From Gammaproteobacteria bacterium (lineage in GTDB: Bacteria; Pseudomonadota; Gammaproteobacteria; Arenicellales; Arenicellaceae), in the NCBI GenBank assembly GCA_030426005.1, contig JAUHZM010000001.1, positions 1 to 50,993 of the forward strand: 50,993 nucleotides of DNA, written 5' to 3'. The notes beneath the pieces were generated by a model that had not been told where the DNA came from, did no database searches, and saw only the letters and a list, made by a program, of their open reading frames with translations. Positions 42,868 through 50,367 of the stretch are shown here, piece by piece; the first letter of the stretch is position 1; each line of letters opens with the position of its first letter. A program made the translations under genes and the position numbers.

Positions 42868-43872
42868 ATGGTAGATGCCAGGCAAATCAAGAAGCTCTCA
42901 GGGTACGACCTGTCCGGTTTCAGCTTGACCGGCAGTGACCTTGCTGGTGCGAATTTGTCGCAAGCGACGCTACGTGGCGCGAACCTGGCTGGTGCGGATC
43001 TGTCTGGGGCTGATCTATCACAGGCGGATCTGACCGGTGCTGATTTGTCTGGTGCGGATTTGTACCAGGCTAAGTTGATGGGCGCGCGACTCAACGGCGC
43101 TAATTTGAGCCATTGTGACGCCACCTCCGCACGATTTGATGAAGCCTCTATGTCTGGTGCCAGTCTCGAAAGTTCTAATTTGAGTGAGGCAAGTTTTTGT
43201 CGTGCTCACTTGAGCGCAGCGGACTTTACGGACTGTGATCTAACGCAAGCTGATTTCACCGGTGCGCAAATGTCAGGTGCGCTATTTTTGCGTTGTAATC
43301 TTAATCGAGCCAAGCTTGATAACAGCAAGCTTTTCGGTGCGCGTTTGATTGATGCCAAGCTCAACAATGCCAGTTTGCGCAATGCTGAGCTAACTTCCGC
43401 AAAATTGCGTGGCGCGCAAATGGAGAACGCCGATTTTATGAACGGCAATTTGTTCAATACGGACTTCTCCAATGCGAACCTTTTGTTTAGTAATTTTGAA
43501 ACGGCTAATCTGCGATCGGCTATTCTCAGTGGGGCGATTATTCGGCATGCGCGGATGGAAGGCGCTAACATGGCCAATAGTCGGCTTACACGCGCCGATT
43601 TTTCTCAGGCCTCACTTGAGGAGAGTAATCTGCGATCGGCACGCGTGTCGGGCAGTCTGTTTGGTCGTACTAACGTGAAAGCGGCGAATTTGATGGCAAC
43701 TGGGTTGAGTAAACAGTTTGCGCTCTCAGAGTTCCCAGATTTGGAGTTTTCTAATCTCACCACCTGGGACTCCGAATTGCAGCGTCAGCGGCATGTATCT
43801 CAGGCACAAAACCAGCGTCTAGCACGTGAAGTTAAAAAGCGTGGATTTTTTTCACGTATCTTTAGTCGCTAG
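42868..43872 (+). CDS. Pentapeptide repeat protein
   Basis: A(D/N)LxG-type pentapeptides run continuously over about 270 aa; short C-terminal tail. Confidence 0.92.
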   Translation: MVDARQIKKLSGYDLSGFSLTGSDLAGANLSQATLRGANLAGADLSGADLSQADLTGADLSGADLYQAKLMGARLNGANLSHCDATSARFDEASMSGASLESSNLSEASFCRAHLSAADFTDCDLTQADFTGAQMSGALFLRCNLNRAKLDNSKLFGARLIDAKLNNASLRNAELTSAKLRGAQMENADFMNGNLFNTDFSNANLLFSNFETANLRSAILSGAIIRHARMEGANMANSRLTRADFSQASLEESNLRSARVSGSLFGRTNVKAANLMATGLSKQFALSEFPDLEFSNLTTWDSELQRQRHVSQAQNQRLAREVKKRGFFSRIFSR

Positions 43873-44126: not shown

Positions 44127-44202
44127 GGGGCTATAGCTCAGCTGGGAGAGCGCTACACTGGCAGTGTAGAGGTCGGCGGTTCGATCCCGCCTAGCTCCAC
44201 CA
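44127..44202 (+). tRNA. tRNA-Ala(GGC)
   Basis: GGGGCTATAGCTCAGCTGGGAGAGCG; anticodon arm CTACA-CTGGCAG-TGTAG; GGTTCGATCC; ends in CCA; 76 nt. Confidence 0.97.
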
Positions 44203-44325: not shown

Positions 44326-44401
44326 GTCCCCATCGTCTAGAGGCCTAGGACACCGCCCTTTCACGGCGGTAACAGGGGTTCGAATCCCCTTGGGGACGCC
44401 A
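44326..44401 (+). tRNA. tRNA-Glu(TTC)
   Basis: GTCCCCATCGTCTAGAGGCCTAGGAC; anticodon arm CCGCC-CTTTCAC-GGCGG; GGTTCGAATCC; ends in CCA; 76 nt. Confidence 0.97.
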
Positions 44402-44403
44402 AT

Positions 44404-44439
44404 AAAAAAGCCTTGCTCGTCAGAGCAGGGCTTTTTTAT
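44404..44439 (+). terminator. Rho-independent terminator of the tRNA operon
   Basis: AAAAAAGCCTTGCTC-GTCA-GAGCAGGGCTTTTTT. Confidence 0.9.
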
Positions 44440-44727
44440 TGGCTGAAGGAAACTTTAAGTGTGCTATGGAGTGGCGATTCAATAATTCAATTGGCGAGAA
44501 CGATAGTTGTCTCTTGCTTTCATATCGAGACATTATGTCTATTAATCTGAAGCTTTAATAATCTTGTAATAGAGTGCGAGTAGAGTCGCACCTGCATTGG
44601 AATTGGGTAGGTTCGATACTGGAATTTTGCCTAAAAAAATGATTGAAGAGTTGCGACCTTTGTGCTAGCTGATTGTAAGCTTATGAATTTGTTGTGTTTA
44701 TTTTTGAAATTTTTTTTTTCAAGTTTA

Positions 44728-44757
44728 TTGACTCGTGACAAAAAAGTAAGATAAGCT
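44728..44757 (+). promoter_or_regulatory. Candidate sigma70 promoter for the flp/tad locus
   Basis: TTGACT-N18-TAAGCT preceded by long T tracts; by eye only. Confidence 0.45.
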
Positions 44758-44850
44758 GAACATATTGTTAGCTAAATTGACTTTCGCGAAGTCGCAATTT
44801 AATTAACGATACGTCCGTGGGTTTTCCGGGGGGGCGTATAAAACAAATTT

Positions 44851-45072
44851 TGTATGCTGTGACTCGTTTAGGAGTGTGCGGTGTCAGAACTTGTTGAAAT
44901 GCTGTTAAACCTACGTACGACCGTCTTCATCGGGGACGAGGTGCACTCCTGTGTGCTGATGTTCCTTCGATCGCATGTTTCTACCCCCGCAGCATTCTGA
45001 CTAGCTCTGTCACGCGAGCTCATACCCTAATACCCACCTCACGCCGTTCCTCAAACGGACTCACGGCATGCA
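44851..45072 (+). ncRNA. Candidate structured RNA element in the flp leader (family not recognised)
   Basis: Nested long-range helices with G-U pairs that work only on the + strand (see findings). Confidence 0.55.
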
Positions 45073-45256
45073 TCTAAAGATAAATTGGCGCTAGCGCATT
45101 GATCTCAGCTGTTTGATCATGCGTTGCCGCGAATTTATAACGTGCAGGCTGCAAAACATGGTTTGCGCAACTTAATTTCAGTATGAACTGACCCATTTTT
45201 CTAAGGTTCAGGCTGATCTTTAAATCCTTAACCACGACTATTTCTAGGAGTTTCAA

Positions 45257-45535
45257 ATGAATAATGTAGTTCTTAACGCGAAAAAACGTCAACGCGGTCA
45301 AGGCATGACCGAATACATCATCATCGTCGCTTTGATCGCAATCGCGGCTATCGGTGTATACAGTAACTTTGGTAAAGCAATCCGTGGCCAAATGTCAGGC
45401 ATGACACAAGAGCTTGGTGGTGAATCTGCTGATATGACAGAAGTCAACAAAGCGGTTACTAAGAACAAAGCCAATGCGAAAGCCAATAACAACCTGAGCA
45501 ACTACAACCAAAGCGCCACCAACGGTGTAAAGTAA
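45257..45535 (+). CDS. flp: Flp/Tad (type IVc) major pilin
   Basis: Basic leader, G|QGMTEY cleavage/Flp motif, hydrophobic helix; strong AGGAG RBS. Confidence 0.9.
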   Translation: MNNVVLNAKKRQRGQGMTEYIIIVALIAIAAIGVYSNFGKAIRGQMSGMTQELGGESADMTEVNKAVTKNKANAKANNNLSNYNQSATNGVK

Positions 45536-45562: not shown

Positions 45563-45605
45563 GGGTAAGCGGTTGCTTGGATAAGCTGAGTACTACCGCT
45601 TACCC
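45563..45605 (+). terminator. Strong stem-loop after the pilin gene (attenuator or mRNA stabiliser)
   Basis: GGGTAAGCGGT...ACCGCTTACCC, an 11-bp perfect stem with a weak U tail. Confidence 0.65.
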
Positions 45606-45712: not shown

Positions 45713-46657
45713 ATGTTGATCTTTTTAAAGCGTGTGCTGTTTCTGGTGCTGATAGTGTCAGGTTCCGCAACGCAGACTGTTTGCTGGGCGTCAACTGAAA
45801 TATTGGTCGGTGTTTACCCTGGGCTTAGTGAGTACTCAACCTTCGAGGAGTCATATTTTTCATACCCGGTGGCGGTGAAGCCTATTGGTGATGATGGCGT
45901 GCTTGCGCCTAAAGTCATTAACGGCAAGCTTGTGCATTCGGTTTTTGTAGGTTCTGACCAAGACAATACCCTCGAGGTATACCAAAGTTTTTATGATGCG
46001 CTTTCCGATAAAAACTTTGAGCTGGTATTCAGTTGCTCCAATGCAGAGTGCGGTGGCGATTTGGTCTATGAACTGGTTGGAAAGTCGTCAGTTTCTTCTG
46101 CTTATGCGGAGGTGCGTCAGTCCGGCCCAGTCAATACCGACTTTCATTATTTGGTAGCACGCCAAACCAATACCGACAATTCAACCTGGTTGATTTACTT
46201 TATCTACAAGTACAGAGGTAACAAGCTGTATTTGGCGCAAGACATCGTTACTCCAAAGGTAATTGAAACCAAGGCGGTTGATATCGCTATCGAGTTTGAT
46301 GAGATTGATCGTGCCGGTAGAGTGGTATTGGACGGTTTATTTTTCGCTACAGACAGCGACGTCTTGCAGTCGAGCTCAAGCCCGGCATTGAAAGATATTT
46401 CAGAGTATTTGAAGCGTCATCCAAAACGTCAGTTTTACGTCGTAGGTCATACCGATGGTCAAGGTCGTTTTACGCATAACCTAACATTGTCTGAGCGGCG
46501 AGCTAACTCGGTGGTCTCAGCGTTAGTGAGGGACTACGGGATACCTTCAGCGATGTTGGTTGCGCGCGGTGTGGGGCCATTGGCTCCGAAGGCGAGTAAT
46601 CTCTCTGAAACAGGTCGCTCAATGAACCGCCGGGTAGAGTTGGTGCCTGCAAATTAA
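45713..46657 (+). CDS. OmpA-like peptidoglycan-binding protein with a DUF4892-like N-terminal domain
   Basis: Signal peptide, FSC...CG, LFFATDS, VVGHTD..G...NL.LSERRA.SV and GRSMNRRVELV. Confidence 0.88.
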   Translation: MLIFLKRVLFLVLIVSGSATQTVCWASTEILVGVYPGLSEYSTFEESYFSYPVAVKPIGDDGVLAPKVINGKLVHSVFVGSDQDNTLEVYQSFYDALSDKNFELVFSCSNAECGGDLVYELVGKSSVSSAYAEVRQSGPVNTDFHYLVARQTNTDNSTWLIYFIYKYRGNKLYLAQDIVTPKVIETKAVDIAIEFDEIDRAGRVVLDGLFFATDSDVLQSSSSPALKDISEYLKRHPKRQFYVVGHTDGQGRFTHNLTLSERRANSVVSALVRDYGIPSAMLVARGVGPLAPKASNLSETGRSMNRRVELVPAN

Positions 46658-46678: not shown

Positions 46679-47062
46679 ATGTTGGTAAATTTGATTCAAG
46701 CTAGTCGCGTTACTCAAATGAGTTTGCTGTGTCTGGCGTTGGCTCTTTCGATTGTGCCCGTACTTCCGACTTTTGCGGGACCGGGTGCAGGACTAACTTG
46801 TGATCACTGGGGTGAGAACGCCAGGAATGTGCTCGCGGATTACCGTATTCGCGTTGAAAGTGGCATGACAGATCCACAAGTTGGCACCAAAGACATGGTT
46901 AGCTATGAAAATATGGCTGAGGGGAAAACTGGTAAGCGCTATTACGACACAATTTTTCCTAAAATTTTTGCCTTAGCAAGCCCAGAAGAAGTGTATTTAG
47001 TTGCTCGAGACTTCTGTGAGTCAATGCCAGACGATGCATTTCTCCCGGAAAATTTTTATTAG
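46679..47062 (+). CDS. Hypothetical exported protein (2 Cys in the mature part)
   Basis: Signal peptide ending TFA-G; co-oriented inside the tad locus. Confidence 0.7.
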   Translation: MLVNLIQASRVTQMSLLCLALALSIVPVLPTFAGPGAGLTCDHWGENARNVLADYRIRVESGMTDPQVGTKDMVSYENMAEGKTGKRYYDTIFPKIFALASPEEVYLVARDFCESMPDDAFLPENFY

Positions 47063-47105: not shown

Positions 47106-48515
47106 ATGTACAGATTCAATTCTCGAAAACAGCAAGGCGGTTACGCTACTGTTCTAGGCGTTATTTTGATGACGACAATGGCCCTGACCATTTTTTCGCT
47201 GTATGACGTCGGGCAGGTGACAACCCATAAAATGCGTGGCCAGAACGCCTCTGACGCCGCCGCATACAGTGTAGCGACGTTTGTCTCCAGGGACCTAAAT
47301 TTTATTGCAACCACAAATCGAGCGATGGTTGCTAATCAAATCGCTATTGGACAGATGGTTGGCTTGAGTTCGTATGGTCATATGATTGAAAGAACTGCCT
47401 CCAACATCGATATCATTGGCGACATTGCACAGTTTATTCCATACGTTGGGCCGGTAATCAAGCGGATCACGGCACTGCTGGAAAAAGCAGCAGAGGCGAT
47501 GGAGAGTGCGTTTGACAAGGCAGCTAAAGCAGTTATCCCGATGAATGAGATAATCTTGGGGTTGCTAAGTACATCTCAGACCCTGTTTCACAATGGCATG
47601 CTGGTTTCGAGTCAGCAGGTATTCAACAAGGTAGCCAAAGATAACGACCCGGATATTGAGTCTTCTGTGGTCGTTGGTGCATACACGGTTGCCAATTTTA
47701 TTTCCGAGCATAATAAAACACTCGAGCGTAATACGGAGCCGAGTGTGCGTGGCGGTGGTCGAAAAAATCGTTTACACCTGAAACGTTATGGTGAGTTTGA
47801 ACAAGTTGTCAAAGGCTCGCAAGATAAGTTCTTAAACTCGCGCTATACGCGATACCTCGCTGGCACAGTGCGAGGTCTCGGCGGAAATGATTTTCGTCGC
47901 CGCGCAATACGAAATAAATATGTGTGGGAATGGACGGCAATGGACACGATGCGGGTTCGAGTTGGACCTTGTTGGTTTGGCTGTTTATTAAAGGCTCCAC
48001 TTGGGTGGGGAGCCGGACACGCGCTAAACCAGGGTTCGTATTACAACTACAGGCGTGACACTCGTCGGTGGGGTGGTGCCTGGCGCAATAGTTCAGCTGC
48101 TTGGTGGGCAAGGCGGACCGACTCGCGAAATAACCTAGCTCGCACCCGGAGTATTAGACCATTCTATGACCTTGAAGAGGATGGCTTGCGGGAAACAGGA
48201 CCTGCCATGGTGTCAATTTTGAAAAAACCGGTTAAGCCGGTCCGCACTTGGAAAGAGGCATCTAAGGATATACCCAATTACAATCTGCAGCAGCGATACG
48301 ATGTGGCTAAAGACGGTGGTATTGCCAAGGATCAAATGCTGAGTATCAGCAAAGCCGAGCCCTATTTTTCAAGGCCGAGAGACCTGTGGCGTCGCAAAGA
48401 TAATAATCTGGAGTACGGGAATCTATATAACCCGTTTTGGCAGCCACGGTTGGTCGAGACCTCATCCGCTGAGAGGGTCGCTGTGATGGCCGCTGCTGCG
48501 GGGATCAATTTATGA
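47106..48515 (+). CDS. TadG-like pilus assembly/tip protein
   Basis: QQG prepilin-like site plus TM, QNASDAAAYS, LNFIA.TNRAMVANQ and C-terminal NLYNPFWQPRL. Confidence 0.82.
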   Translation: MYRFNSRKQQGGYATVLGVILMTTMALTIFSLYDVGQVTTHKMRGQNASDAAAYSVATFVSRDLNFIATTNRAMVANQIAIGQMVGLSSYGHMIERTASNIDIIGDIAQFIPYVGPVIKRITALLEKAAEAMESAFDKAAKAVIPMNEIILGLLSTSQTLFHNGMLVSSQQVFNKVAKDNDPDIESSVVVGAYTVANFISEHNKTLERNTEPSVRGGGRKNRLHLKRYGEFEQVVKGSQDKFLNSRYTRYLAGTVRGLGGNDFRRRAIRNKYVWEWTAMDTMRVRVGPCWFGCLLKAPLGWGAGHALNQGSYYNYRRDTRRWGGAWRNSSAAWWARRTDSRNNLARTRSIRPFYDLEEDGLRETGPAMVSILKKPVKPVRTWKEASKDIPNYNLQQRYDVAKDGGIAKDQMLSISKAEPYFSRPRDLWRRKDNNLEYGNLYNPFWQPRLVETSSAERVAVMAAAAGINL

Positions 48516-49384
48516 TGGGCGCTAGAATGAAGAATACGGGATGCCGAGACCGGTGCCGTGATCAACGAGGCGCAGTTTGGGCGGAGTTCGTGGTTGTCGC
48601 CGGATTCGTGCTTGTTGGCGTAATAACACTCGTGCCACTGATGGGGAAAATGATCGACACTCGTCATAAGGTCGAGATGAGTGGCCGATACGCTGCATGG
48701 GAACGAACAGTTTGGTTTCAAAATCGTCCGAGTTATCACCCAAACCGAAATCTGGCAAAGTCCAATGCTCAGCTGCAAAATGAAATTCATCATCGAATTT
48801 TTAGTGAACCAGACACGGTTCTACATAGCGAGCAGCACCGCGATTTGAAAGGTTTGGTATACGACCCCATGGCTCGTTTCAATAATCCGACCAAACGACG
48901 TCGTGATCGATATGACAACCTGCTGGTCAAGAAAGGCGAAGTGGCTGGTGAAGATTCATTTGTTCAACTCAGTCAAACTGAATCCAGTCCACCGGGAGAG
49001 GCGACGCGGCTAATTACTAACGTGCTTGGAACCATCAACCGTTTTGGTAACGCCAGAGTCAATCAAAAAGGTTATTACTCAGGTCAAGTCTCAGTAGAAA
49101 TTAAAGAATTCTCCTGGATCCCGGAATTCAAAGGCGTGAAACCCAATTTCACTACACACTCCGCGATCCTGACTGATGGCTGGAACGTGGGAGGACCTGA
49201 CGATGCCAAGAAACGTGTCACGCCATTTTTGCCGCAGGACTGGATCGATGGCGAAGTGACAGACGTTCTTCAGGACGTTGCGGGTTTCTTCTTTGACCCG
49301 CTGAAATCATCTTCATTGGACATTGGACGGGTTGATTCCGAGCCCGTACCAGGTTCCAGACTGACGCGCTACCGCAGTCGATAA
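48512..49384 (+). CDS. TadE-like minor pilin
   Basis: QRG|AVWAEF plus hydrophobic helix, RYAAWERTVW. Confidence 0.78.
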   Translation: MMGARMKNTGCRDRCRDQRGAVWAEFVVVAGFVLVGVITLVPLMGKMIDTRHKVEMSGRYAAWERTVWFQNRPSYHPNRNLAKSNAQLQNEIHHRIFSEPDTVLHSEQHRDLKGLVYDPMARFNNPTKRRRDRYDNLLVKKGEVAGEDSFVQLSQTESSPPGEATRLITNVLGTINRFGNARVNQKGYYSGQVSVEIKEFSWIPEFKGVKPNFTTHSAILTDGWNVGGPDDAKKRVTPFLPQDWIDGEVTDVLQDVAGFFFDPLKSSSLDIGRVDSEPVPGSRLTRYRSR

Positions 49385-50142: not shown

Positions 50143-50367
50143 ATGACTACCCACTCACAAATGAAGAAGACATATCGCGTTCGGCTGAATCGGGCACGCG
50201 GAGCTACCGTGGTTGAATACCTCATCGGGCTCATCGCCATTGTTTCAGTTCTCTTAATCCCGGTGCCGGGGAAAAATAAAAGTGTTGTTGTGTTGCTTGA
50301 GGAAGCGATCAAGAAAGAGCACTCCGCGTATATCTACGCACAATCACTTCCGTCTCCGAAAAAGTAA
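50143..50367 (+). CDS. Small pilin-like protein (minor Flp/TadE-like)
   Basis: RG|ATVVEY motif followed by a hydrophobic helix. Confidence 0.78.
   Translation: MTTHSQMKKTYRVRLNRARGATVVEYLIGLIAIVSVLLIPVPGKNKSVVVLLEEAIKKEHSAYIYAQSLPSPKK

What the first reader, a model, noticed from the sequence alone, without database searches (positions are those of the whole stretch)
44774..45256. Large unrecognised multi-branch RNA structure in a ~490-nt leader of the Flp pilin gene
Seen: no credible ORF here, yet the leader is almost fully paired. Outer helix: TGTATGCTGTGA (44851-62) with TCACGGCATGCA (45061-72), 12 bp including 2 G-U, continuing through CGTTT/AAACG, AGGA/TCCT, GTGTG/CACGC and GGTG/CACC to about 30 bp with bulges. 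Nested inside: GTCAGAA..ATGCTG (44883-904) with CAGCATTCTGAC (44990-45001), plus hairpins CGTCTT/GGGACG (44922-38), GCAC/GTGC and AGCTC/GAGCT (45003-20). More hairpins flank it at 44774-800, 44809-39 and 45082-136. The non-Watson-Crick positions are mostly G-U on the + strand, as expected for selection on RNA. It does not resemble the c-di-GMP-I riboswitch, 6S, SRP, RNase P, tmRNA or CsrB sequences I recall. Inference: an undescribed cis-regulatory RNA (riboswitch-like, thermosensor or protein-binding) or an sRNA controlling Tad pilus expression.
Basis: partly seen in the sequence, partly recalled or inferred. Interest (0 to 1): 0.78.

Follow-up and report, generated by a model that had tools for sequence, protein, structure and literature searches.

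The report
Bistable structured leader before Arenicella pilin
The roughly 495 bases in front of the Flp adhesion-pilus gene of this marine Arenicella-like bacterium are conserved in a way that preserves RNA base-pairing and match no catalogued RNA family; they likely form an mRNA leader whose small conserved core is predicted to flip between two folds and so likely sets how long the pilin message survives.

Summary
Partly confirmed. The listed helices exist and the + strand folds better than shuffles (z -3.8; - strand -0.15). It is not 'almost fully paired' (57% vs 60% in shuffles). Against close relative G041, 56 substitutions give 7 double-compensatory and no broken pairs; 0 of 240 control placements fold as well.
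A distant congener (G009) keeps four short collinear blocks. Strand a (44813-23) can pair with b (hairpin 44809-39, covarying stem) or with d (45058-66); the folds are predicted within about 2.5 kcal/mol in all three genomes.
No Rfam match, single copy, found in 3 of 8 family genomes with this flp. c-di-GMP is unlikely (0 EAL, 1 weak GGDEF in 3 genomes). There is no terminator, and predicted ribosome-site access does not change.
Best reading (0.35): a lineage-restricted leader switch controlling mRNA survival; near rival (0.3): a constitutive protective fold. Start site and RNA are untested. The scan has no look-alike sequence but noted unrelated structured flp leaders elsewhere.

The parts
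44401..44440 (+). Bidirectional terminator-like hairpin after tRNA-Ala(GGC) 44127-44202 and tRNA-Glu(UUC) 44326-44401; likely separates the tRNA operon from the flp unit (inferred)
44570..44586 (.). Direct repeat TAGAGT-N5-TAGAGT, a candidate activator site on DNA; kept in G041 and in inverted orientation (N7) in G009; the only match in this assembly
44735..44750 (+). Promoter-region motif GT(G/C)ACAAAAA..TA.G, 28-35 nt before the first hairpin in all three genomes; promoter role inferred, no sigma-70 consensus called
44763..44811 (+). H1: AU-rich 5' hairpin at the inferred transcript start; G009 has an unrelated-sequence hairpin at the same place
   Evidence: (p about 0.8)
44813..44823 (+). 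Strand a (GUCCGUGGGUU), invariant in G000, G041 and G009; pairs with b, with d, or (G000/G041 only) with 45032-37
44809..44839 (+). P1 hairpin (a:b) with a G-rich internal loop; strand b (CGGGGGG[G/A]C) starts at 44827; the stem covaries between G000 and G009
44851..44862 (+). No counterpart found in G009
44881..45013 (+). Inner rod 44881-905/44989-45013 capped by a junction with hairpins 44922-38 and 44940-57; the block at 44995-45010 is 14 of 16 identical in G009, whose rod is much shorter
44881..45000 (+). SD-led (AGGAG 44870-74) GTG uORF of 39 codons; 26 codons with amino-acid changes in G041, no equivalent in G009; not a conserved peptide
45019..45037 (+). C-rich tract predicted single-stranded only in the a:b fold (G000 and G041)
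45058..45066 (+). Strand d (GACUCACGG; GACCCACGG in G009): 9-bp complement of a, and 3' arm of the outer helix
45080..45216 (+). Three 3' hairpins (45080-138, 45142-68, 45178-216); 45076-175 is only 61% identical in G041 but pairing is kept, with compensatory changes such as 45090/45128, 45096/45122, 45098/45120
45246..45250 (+). Shine-Dalgarno AGGAG of flp
45257..45535 (+). Flp/Fap-type pilin gene (92 aa), first gene of an OmpA-Tad-RcpC cluster; nearest named protein 80% identical, labelled Arenicella xantha
45563..45605 (+). Strong hairpin just after flp; G041 and G009 have long hairpins of different sequence at the same place; likely 3' stabiliser or terminator that would enrich pilin mRNA

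Best explanation
The ~495 nt before flp are under selection for RNA pairing on the flp strand and are likely the 5' leader of the flp-tad mRNA, whose conserved core is predicted to switch between an a:b hairpin fold and an a:d closed fold and so likely sets mRNA survival (likely access of an RNase E-type nuclease) rather than ribosome binding, with a trigger that is likely a protein or small RNA and likely not c-di-GMP. Shown: selection on structure, four collinear blocks kept in a distant congener, and both a:b and a:d complementarity in all three genomes. Predicted: the folds are near-equal in energy. The a:b fold leaves AU-rich (44839-50) and C-rich (45019-37) single strands open, and a U-rich one in G009; the a:d fold closes them. 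Inferred: a factor that binds the G-rich P1 loop would hold the open, decay-prone OFF fold, and its release would let d invade P1 from the loop and give a protected ON message. The covarying 3' hairpins and the hairpin after flp would be constitutive stabilisers of an abundant pilin mRNA.
For: Strand-specific folding. G000/G041 consensus -138.75 vs -113.9 +/- 5.4 (local) and -109.0 +/- 6.2 (global) for relocated substitutions, 0 of 120 each; 7 double changes, 0 broken pairs. The segments holding a, b, c and d are the most constrained: 123 of 123 identical at 44764-886 and 97% at 45008-75, against 91% in the flp CDS and 61% in the 3' hairpins. P1 stem in G009: three double changes, one one-sided change and one broken pair over 8 positions; a:d has one one-sided change (G-U to G-C) over 9 bp. 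a:d duplex: 1 of 1000 shuffles reach it in G009, 45 of 1000 in G000; 0 of 182 and 8 of 182 ORF-free 400-nt segments reach these energies. GACYCACGG occurs 22 times in 6.1 Mb, about 0.15% per 430 nt. The states are within 0.7-2.3 kcal/mol when 30 nt of CDS are included at 37 C. SD access is the same in both states (0.31/0.35, 0.30/0.40, 0.04/0.06). The only terminator-like calls in the leader (44940-57, 45142-68) lack a proper U run. Single-strand runs specific to the a:b fold.
Against: Only three genomes, two of them close, so about two independent sequences; covariation counts are small and several double changes in the 3' hairpins depend on the alignment near a 7-nt gap. One-sided changes are not enriched (8 vs about 12 in controls). 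The G009 leader as a whole is not clearly more stable than shuffles (z -1.44, 8 of 100; proximal 250 nt z 0.0). P1 alone has z only -1.5 to -1.75. In G000/G041 a third fold (a with 45032-37) competes and dominates in G041 (p 0.82; a:d only 0.01-0.04). Near-equal folds are common in 500-nt predictions, and state probabilities swing with prefix length. Total unpaired C does not differ between states, the 44839-50 run is state-specific only in the truncated fold, and full-length G009 has no long single strand in either state. One of 2 loose-pattern chance hits in other families also had a perfect downstream complement, inside a pstB-like CDS. No RNA, start site, trigger or nuclease site was observed.
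Confidence: 0.35

Rival explanations
1. Constitutive protective scaffold: the leader has one functional fold (a:d closing the 5' domain, or a pseudoknot with the lower P1 stem kept) that shields a very abundant pilin mRNA from nucleases and Rho; a:b is only a folding intermediate and there is no regulated switch.
For: No expression platform. The 3' hairpins keep pairing with little sequence constraint. Sense-strand structure is also seen before flp in G046 (z -3.8) and G020 (z -2.9) with unrelated sequence. A strong hairpin follows flp in all three genomes. a:d dominates as soon as d is made (p 0.74-0.88 at that prefix).
Against: Does not explain why the loop bases CGGGG and all of a are invariant while plain hairpins drift, nor why G000/G041 keep a perfect second partner (c) for d.
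Confidence: 0.3
2. Orphan small-molecule or ion riboswitch: lower P1 (S1), a:d (S2) and the G-rich linker form a pseudoknot with base triples that binds a ligand; the variable rod is a peripheral insertion.
For: S1 and S2 are compatible as a pseudoknot in all three genomes, with a 10-11-nt linker ending in CGGGGGG and an insertion of 217 or 64 nt. The invariant bases cluster in this core. Pilin genes are known riboswitch targets (C. difficile pilA1; PMC6366702, passages).
Against: Very narrow range (3 of 243 genomes in the order, plus 2 chance hits), unlike typical riboswitches (recalled). No terminator or SD coupling. c-di-GMP enzymes are nearly absent. No Rfam match. The pseudoknot was not scored by any program.
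Confidence: 0.12
3. Rho-dependent attenuator: the a:b fold exposes a C-rich rut tract (45019-37) in a long untranslated leader, as in the E. coli pgaA, ribB, lysC and cold-shock leaders.
For: C>G tract at about 44960-45075 (22-25 C vs 8-11 G per 60 nt), 19 nt exposed only in the a:b fold. Rho is present in 4 of 4 near-complete congeners. Precedents in PMC12360218 (12 of 50 passages read).
Against: Total unpaired C is equal between states, and G009 has only 3-7 unpaired C in the core region. Rho was not found in the 83%-complete own assembly.
Confidence: 0.1
4. A separate or processed small RNA (about 44763-45075) acting in trans, with flp driven from its own downstream promoter or released by cleavage.
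For: The conserved core forms a closed 5' domain that ends about 190-330 nt before the start codon and does not affect the SD.
Against: No terminator after d. The element is always directly before flp and single-copy. No promoter consensus was called between d and flp. CsrB-like ANGGA motifs: 1 in G000, 0 in G041 and G009.
Confidence: 0.08
5. The conserved blocks are DNA sites (inverted repeats for a transcription factor) or a decayed mobile element, and the folding is incidental.
For: a and d are inverted repeats at DNA level. z <= -3.5 is reached by 25 of 294 ORF-free strand-windows.
Against: G-U-dependent strand asymmetry, compensatory changes, variable a-d spacing (245 vs 93 nt), single copy, and no match among plasmids or phages.
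Confidence: 0.05

Closest known systems
Restructuring 5' leaders that gate mRNA fate away from the SD: E. coli pgaA (CsrA), ribB and lysC, rpoS (DsrA/ArcZ/RprA), cspA/cspB/cspG (PMC12360218, passages)
   Same: Long untranslated leader, alternative folds that mask or expose a single-stranded tract, no intrinsic terminator; pgaA also controls a biofilm product.
   Different: No sequence or Rfam similarity; no conserved CsrA sites; the rut-like tract is not conserved in G009; trigger and output not shown.
c-di-GMP riboswitches before pilin genes (class II Cdi-2-4 at C. difficile pilA1, PMC6366702 passages; class I RF01051)
   Same: Structured leader directly before a major pilin gene that heads a pilus operon.
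   Different: No match to any Rfam riboswitch at E <= 10; no terminator platform; the host has no detectable EAL and almost no GGDEF proteins.
5' stem-loop stabilisers and differentially stable pilin mRNAs (E. coli ompA 5' UTR, papA; recalled, not checked here)
   Same: Hairpin at the inferred 5' end and a strong hairpin after the pilin gene, which would favour pilin over assembly genes.
   Different: Much longer (about 495 nt), with an invariant G-rich core and two mutually exclusive long-range helices.
GUCCY-hairpin and Gamma-cis-1 motifs of Weinberg et al. 2010 (PMC2864571; table passage and first supplement rows seen)
   Same: Proteobacterial motifs listed without an Rfam number; GUCCY-hairpin starts with GUC.
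   Different: The rows seen are GUC, a fully paired hairpin, then CY; they lack GUGGGUU, the G-run and the distal complement. Compared by eye on the first rows only.

Membership tests
c-di-GMP-I/II riboswitch | Match to the Rfam covariance models | tested here: not met
   No hit in the leader at the gathering score or at E <= 10, nor in G041/G009. The genome-wide RF01051 search rang in no control, so it is uninformative.
c-di-GMP-I/II riboswitch | Host makes and degrades c-di-GMP | tested here: not met
   EAL 0 of 3 genomes; GGDEF one weak match in 1 of 3; no RxGG[DE]EF motif in the own assembly. G041 and G009 are 99% complete; HD-GYP not searched.
Riboswitch (any) | Expression platform: terminator or SD coupled to the aptamer fold | tested here: not met
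   No convincing U-tailed terminator; SD access unchanged between states. Rho or nuclease platforms are not excluded.
Riboswitch (any) | Direct ligand binding | not testable with these tools
   Needs in-line probing or SHAPE.
RNA thermometer (SD-occluding or cspA-like) | Temperature-dependent opening of the SD or a consistent fold shift | tested here: not met
   SD unpaired 0.34-0.37 (G000), 0.38-0.39 (G041), 0.00-0.11 (G009) from 4 to 42 C; fold shifts differ in direction between genomes. Prediction only.
Rho-dependent attenuator | C-rich unpaired rut site toggled by the fold, in a host with Rho | tested here: inconclusive
   Rho in 4 of 4 congeners; 19-nt tract toggled in G000/G041, but total unpaired C is equal and the tract is missing in G009.
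Leader-peptide attenuator | Conserved uORF with regulatory codons | tested here: not met
   39 vs 26 codons with non-synonymous changes; none at that place in G009.
CsrB/RsmZ-type sRNA or CsrA-bound leader | Several ANGGA motifs in loops | tested here: not met
   1, 0 and 0 ANGGA in the three leaders, although csrA is present in 4 of 4 complete congeners.
6S RNA | RF00013 match | tested here: not met
   The genome's 6S RNA is on contig C380 (60.6 bits); no match here.
MITE/REP/IS remnant | Multiple copies or similarity to mobile DNA | tested here: not met
   Single copy in the assembly; no plasmid or phage match.
Bacterial Y RNA | Rfam match and a Ro60 (TROVE) gene in the host | tested here: not met
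   No Rfam hit; no TROVE found in the 83%-complete assembly. The resemblance was recalled only.
Structured cis-acting 5' leader | Transcribed as one RNA with flp from a start near 44763 | not tested
   Inferred from position, the upstream tRNA terminator and conservation; no read-level RNA data were obtained.

The most novel reading that the evidence does not exclude
The a/b/d core is a new class of compact aptamer: a pseudoknot (lower P1 stacked on the 9-bp a:d helix, with the invariant CGGGGGG linker forming base triples) carrying a variable 60-220-nt insertion. It senses a second messenger or metabolite other than c-di-GMP and controls Tad pilus production in a marine lineage that has essentially lost c-di-GMP signalling.
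Probability: 0.12. Interest if true: 0.85.

Novelty: new member of a known kind. Interest (0 to 1): 0.48.

Why it matters
Tad/Flp pili drive surface attachment, and where RNA control of pilin genes is known it usually runs through c-di-GMP riboswitches. These Arenicella-like bacteria have almost no c-di-GMP enzymes yet keep a long, selected, apparently bistable pilin leader, so they may use another signal or an RNA-binding factor to decide when to stick. The core is small and precisely mapped (about 45 nt in four blocks), which makes it directly testable by probing and lock mutants. If it is only a stabilising scaffold, it is a lineage-specific leader of modest interest.

Tried and rejected
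Expression evidence: 20 of 24 listed runs hold part of the flp region, 8 of them RNA runs with word shares 0.21-0.56.

Wider homologues: BLAST of the three leaders against 80 metagenome flp loci (43-81% identity), 6 family/order loci and 7 other stored loci found nothing credible. A relaxed P1 descriptor matched only G000, G041 and G009 among 78 of 89 loci in which flp could be placed with enough upstream DNA. Rfam found only tRNAs in 40 loci. The exact pattern gave 3 viral and 4 genome hits: 6 of 7 lie inside long stop-free frames and none has ACCCAC downstream. The genome scan did not return the three known positives, so its negative is weak. A looser pattern over 243 genomes of the order gave the three positives plus 2 hits in coding DNA, against 3 hits for the reversed control. 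A first idea that G046 holds a diverged a/d pair was dropped; its motifs look like TTGAC-N-ATCAA DNA boxes.

Rejected readings: c-di-GMP riboswitch, thermometer, leader peptide, CsrB-type RNA, 6S, Y RNA, MITE (see membership tests). No strict sigma-54 site in 8 upstream regions. ACCCAC at 45032-37 was first taken as the homologue of the G009 complement; one search shows that 45058-66 matches better (8 of 9 bases). No covariance model was built because MAFFT misplaced the loop gap.

Literature: searches found no paper describing this leader (45-47 returned nothing); the PMC7494200 passages were irrelevant. The library lacks most subscription papers, and supplements of later motif surveys were not checked.

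Full report
Setting. The stretch 44774-45256 lies between a tRNA-Ala/tRNA-Glu pair with its terminator and a 92-aa Flp/Fap-type pilin gene at 45257-45535 (Pfam E 3e-6, under the curated cut-off). The gene heads a cluster with OmpA-, Tad- and RcpC/SAF-domain genes. The nearest named protein is 80% identical and labelled Arenicella xantha, so the host is taken to be Arenicella-like. Eight of 49 family genomes, this one included, carry a match to this pilin.

Observation. The + strand folds at z -3.77 (0 of 100 shuffles) and the - strand at z -0.15; DNA parameters give -2.8 and -0.7. This is more than chance but not extreme: 25 of 294 strand-windows from 147 of 162 ORF-free regions reach z <= -3.5. 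The region is not 'almost fully paired' (57% vs 60% in shuffles). Rfam has no match at the gathering score or at E <= 10, 6S RNA lies elsewhere, and the element is single-copy in the 83%-complete assembly.

Selection on structure. G041 has an identical pilin and 56 substitutions over 497 aligned columns. The two-sequence consensus folds at -138.75 with 7 double-compensatory, 8 one-sided and 0 broken pairs. Moving the same substitutions to random positions gives -113.9 +/- 5.4 (within 25 nt) or -109.0 +/- 6.2 (anywhere), with 0 of 120 reaching the observed value in each test. Seven or more double changes arose in 3 and 0 of 120; one-sided changes are not enriched. Some of the double changes flank a 7-nt gap and depend on the alignment. 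Constraint is uneven: 123 of 123 identical at 44764-886, 88% in the inner rod, 97% at 45008-75, 61% in the 3' hairpins, 91% in the CDS and 55% just after the tRNA terminator.

The conserved core. The distant congener G009 (pilin 81% identical) shares no alignable leader by BLAST except a 22-nt match (E 0.11). It nevertheless keeps four collinear blocks: a (GUCCGUGGGUU; -444 vs -434 from the start codon), b (CGGGGGG[G/A]C), a 16-nt block in the 3' arm of the rod, and d (GAC[U/C]CACGG; 45058-66). a pairs with b in hairpin P1, whose stem shows three double changes, one one-sided change and one broken pair over 8 positions. a also pairs with d over 9 bp with one one-sided change. The a:d duplex is reached by 1 of 1000 shuffles in G009 and 45 of 1000 in G000, and by 0 and 8 of 182 ORF-free segments. 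A third fold, a with 45032-37, exists only in these two genomes and dominates in G041. The a:b and a:d ensembles are within about 2.5 kcal/mol in all three genomes. The lower P1 stem and a:d could also coexist as a pseudoknot with a 10-11-nt G-rich linker and an insertion of 217 or 64 nt (strands listed, not scored). Against over-reading: the G009 leader overall is only z -1.44, P1 alone about -1.6, and one chance hit in coding DNA of another family also had a perfect downstream complement.

Range. The P1 pattern occurs in 3 of 49 family genomes, always before flp, and in no further credible place among 243 genomes of the order, 78 of 89 scorable flp loci, plasmids or phages. Collection-wide pattern hits look like chance, but the genome scan missed the known positives, so it says little. 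Two other congeners have sense-strand structure before flp with unrelated sequence (z -3.8 and -2.9), against 5 of 67 scorable distant loci at z <= -2.9.

Mechanism. The predicted state does not alter SD or AUG access, there is no convincing terminator, and temperature has no consistent effect. The SD-led uORF at 44881-45000 is not conserved as a peptide, and CsrA motifs are nearly absent. c-di-GMP is an unlikely ligand: no EAL domain in 3 of 3 genomes and one weak GGDEF in 1 of 3, two of the genomes being 99% complete. What does differ is exposure of single strands. The a:b fold opens 45019-37 (C-rich) and, in the truncated fold, 44839-50 (AU-rich), and a U-rich run in truncated G009; the a:d fold closes them. 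Total unpaired C does not differ and G009 lacks a rut-like tract, which weakens Rho as the output although Rho is present in 4 of 4 congeners. I therefore favour a switch that gates nuclease access and mRNA survival, triggered by a protein or sRNA at the G-rich P1 loop (0.35). Every step after 'both helices are conserved' is inference. A constitutive protective fold is nearly as likely (0.3); then an orphan aptamer (0.12), a Rho attenuator (0.1), a separate sRNA (0.08) and a DNA-level element (0.05).

Comparison with what is known. It would work like restructuring leaders such as pgaA, ribB, lysC, rpoS and cspA (PMC12360218; 12 of 50 passages read) and sits where c-di-GMP riboswitches often sit (C. 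difficile pilA1; PMC6366702, 8 passages). It fails or leaves open the membership tests of each family. It does not resemble the first rows of the non-Rfam GUCCY-hairpin or Gamma-cis-1 motifs of PMC2864571 (table passage and supplement passages). Searches found no description of this leader; the ompA and papA comparisons are recalled. The scan's own notes hold no look-alike sequence but several unrelated structured leaders before flp genes; these are leads, not support.

Verdict. A real, selected, uncatalogued and narrowly distributed RNA structure, most likely a cis-acting pilin leader with a bistable or pseudoknotted core. New member of a known kind; interest 0.48. The boldest reading not excluded is a new ligand-binding pseudoknot controlling adhesion in a lineage nearly devoid of c-di-GMP signalling (probability 0.12). 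No read-level RNA evidence was obtained, so transcription and the start site remain open.

Noticed in passing
window 44570-44586; L007 and L008 upstream regions: TAGAGT-N5-TAGAGT direct repeat about 680 nt before flp, unique in this assembly, kept in G041 and inverted (N7) in G009: a candidate orientation-independent activator site.
   Followed up: partly
genomes G000, G041, G009: No EAL and at most one weak GGDEF domain in these 3-4.4 Mb surface-associated gammaproteobacteria: c-di-GMP signalling looks nearly absent, which is unusual for the class (recalled).
   Followed up: partly
window 45190-45196: GACCCAU in the loop of the last leader hairpin is kept in G041 while the rest of the loop varies, and is complementary to the P1 loop GUGGGUU (possible kissing contact near the SD); not present in G009 and of modest statistical weight.
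   Followed up: no
L010 (G046) at -217 and -105 from the flp start: Two TTGAC-N-ATCAA boxes (FNR/CRP-family-like; label recalled) upstream of flp in another congener that lacks the RNA core.
   Followed up: no
window 45713-46657; L008 and L009: An OmpA-domain gene sits next to flp in G000, G009 and G020; in G020 it is upstream and divergent instead of downstream.
   Followed up: no
window 42868-43872: 334-aa pentapeptide-repeat protein gene upstream of the tRNA pair.
   Followed up: no
window 46679-47062, 48512-49384, 50143-50367: Three genes of the tad cluster without a Pfam match at E 0.01; 48512-49384 and 50143-50367 begin with pilin-like N-termini by eye.
   Followed up: no
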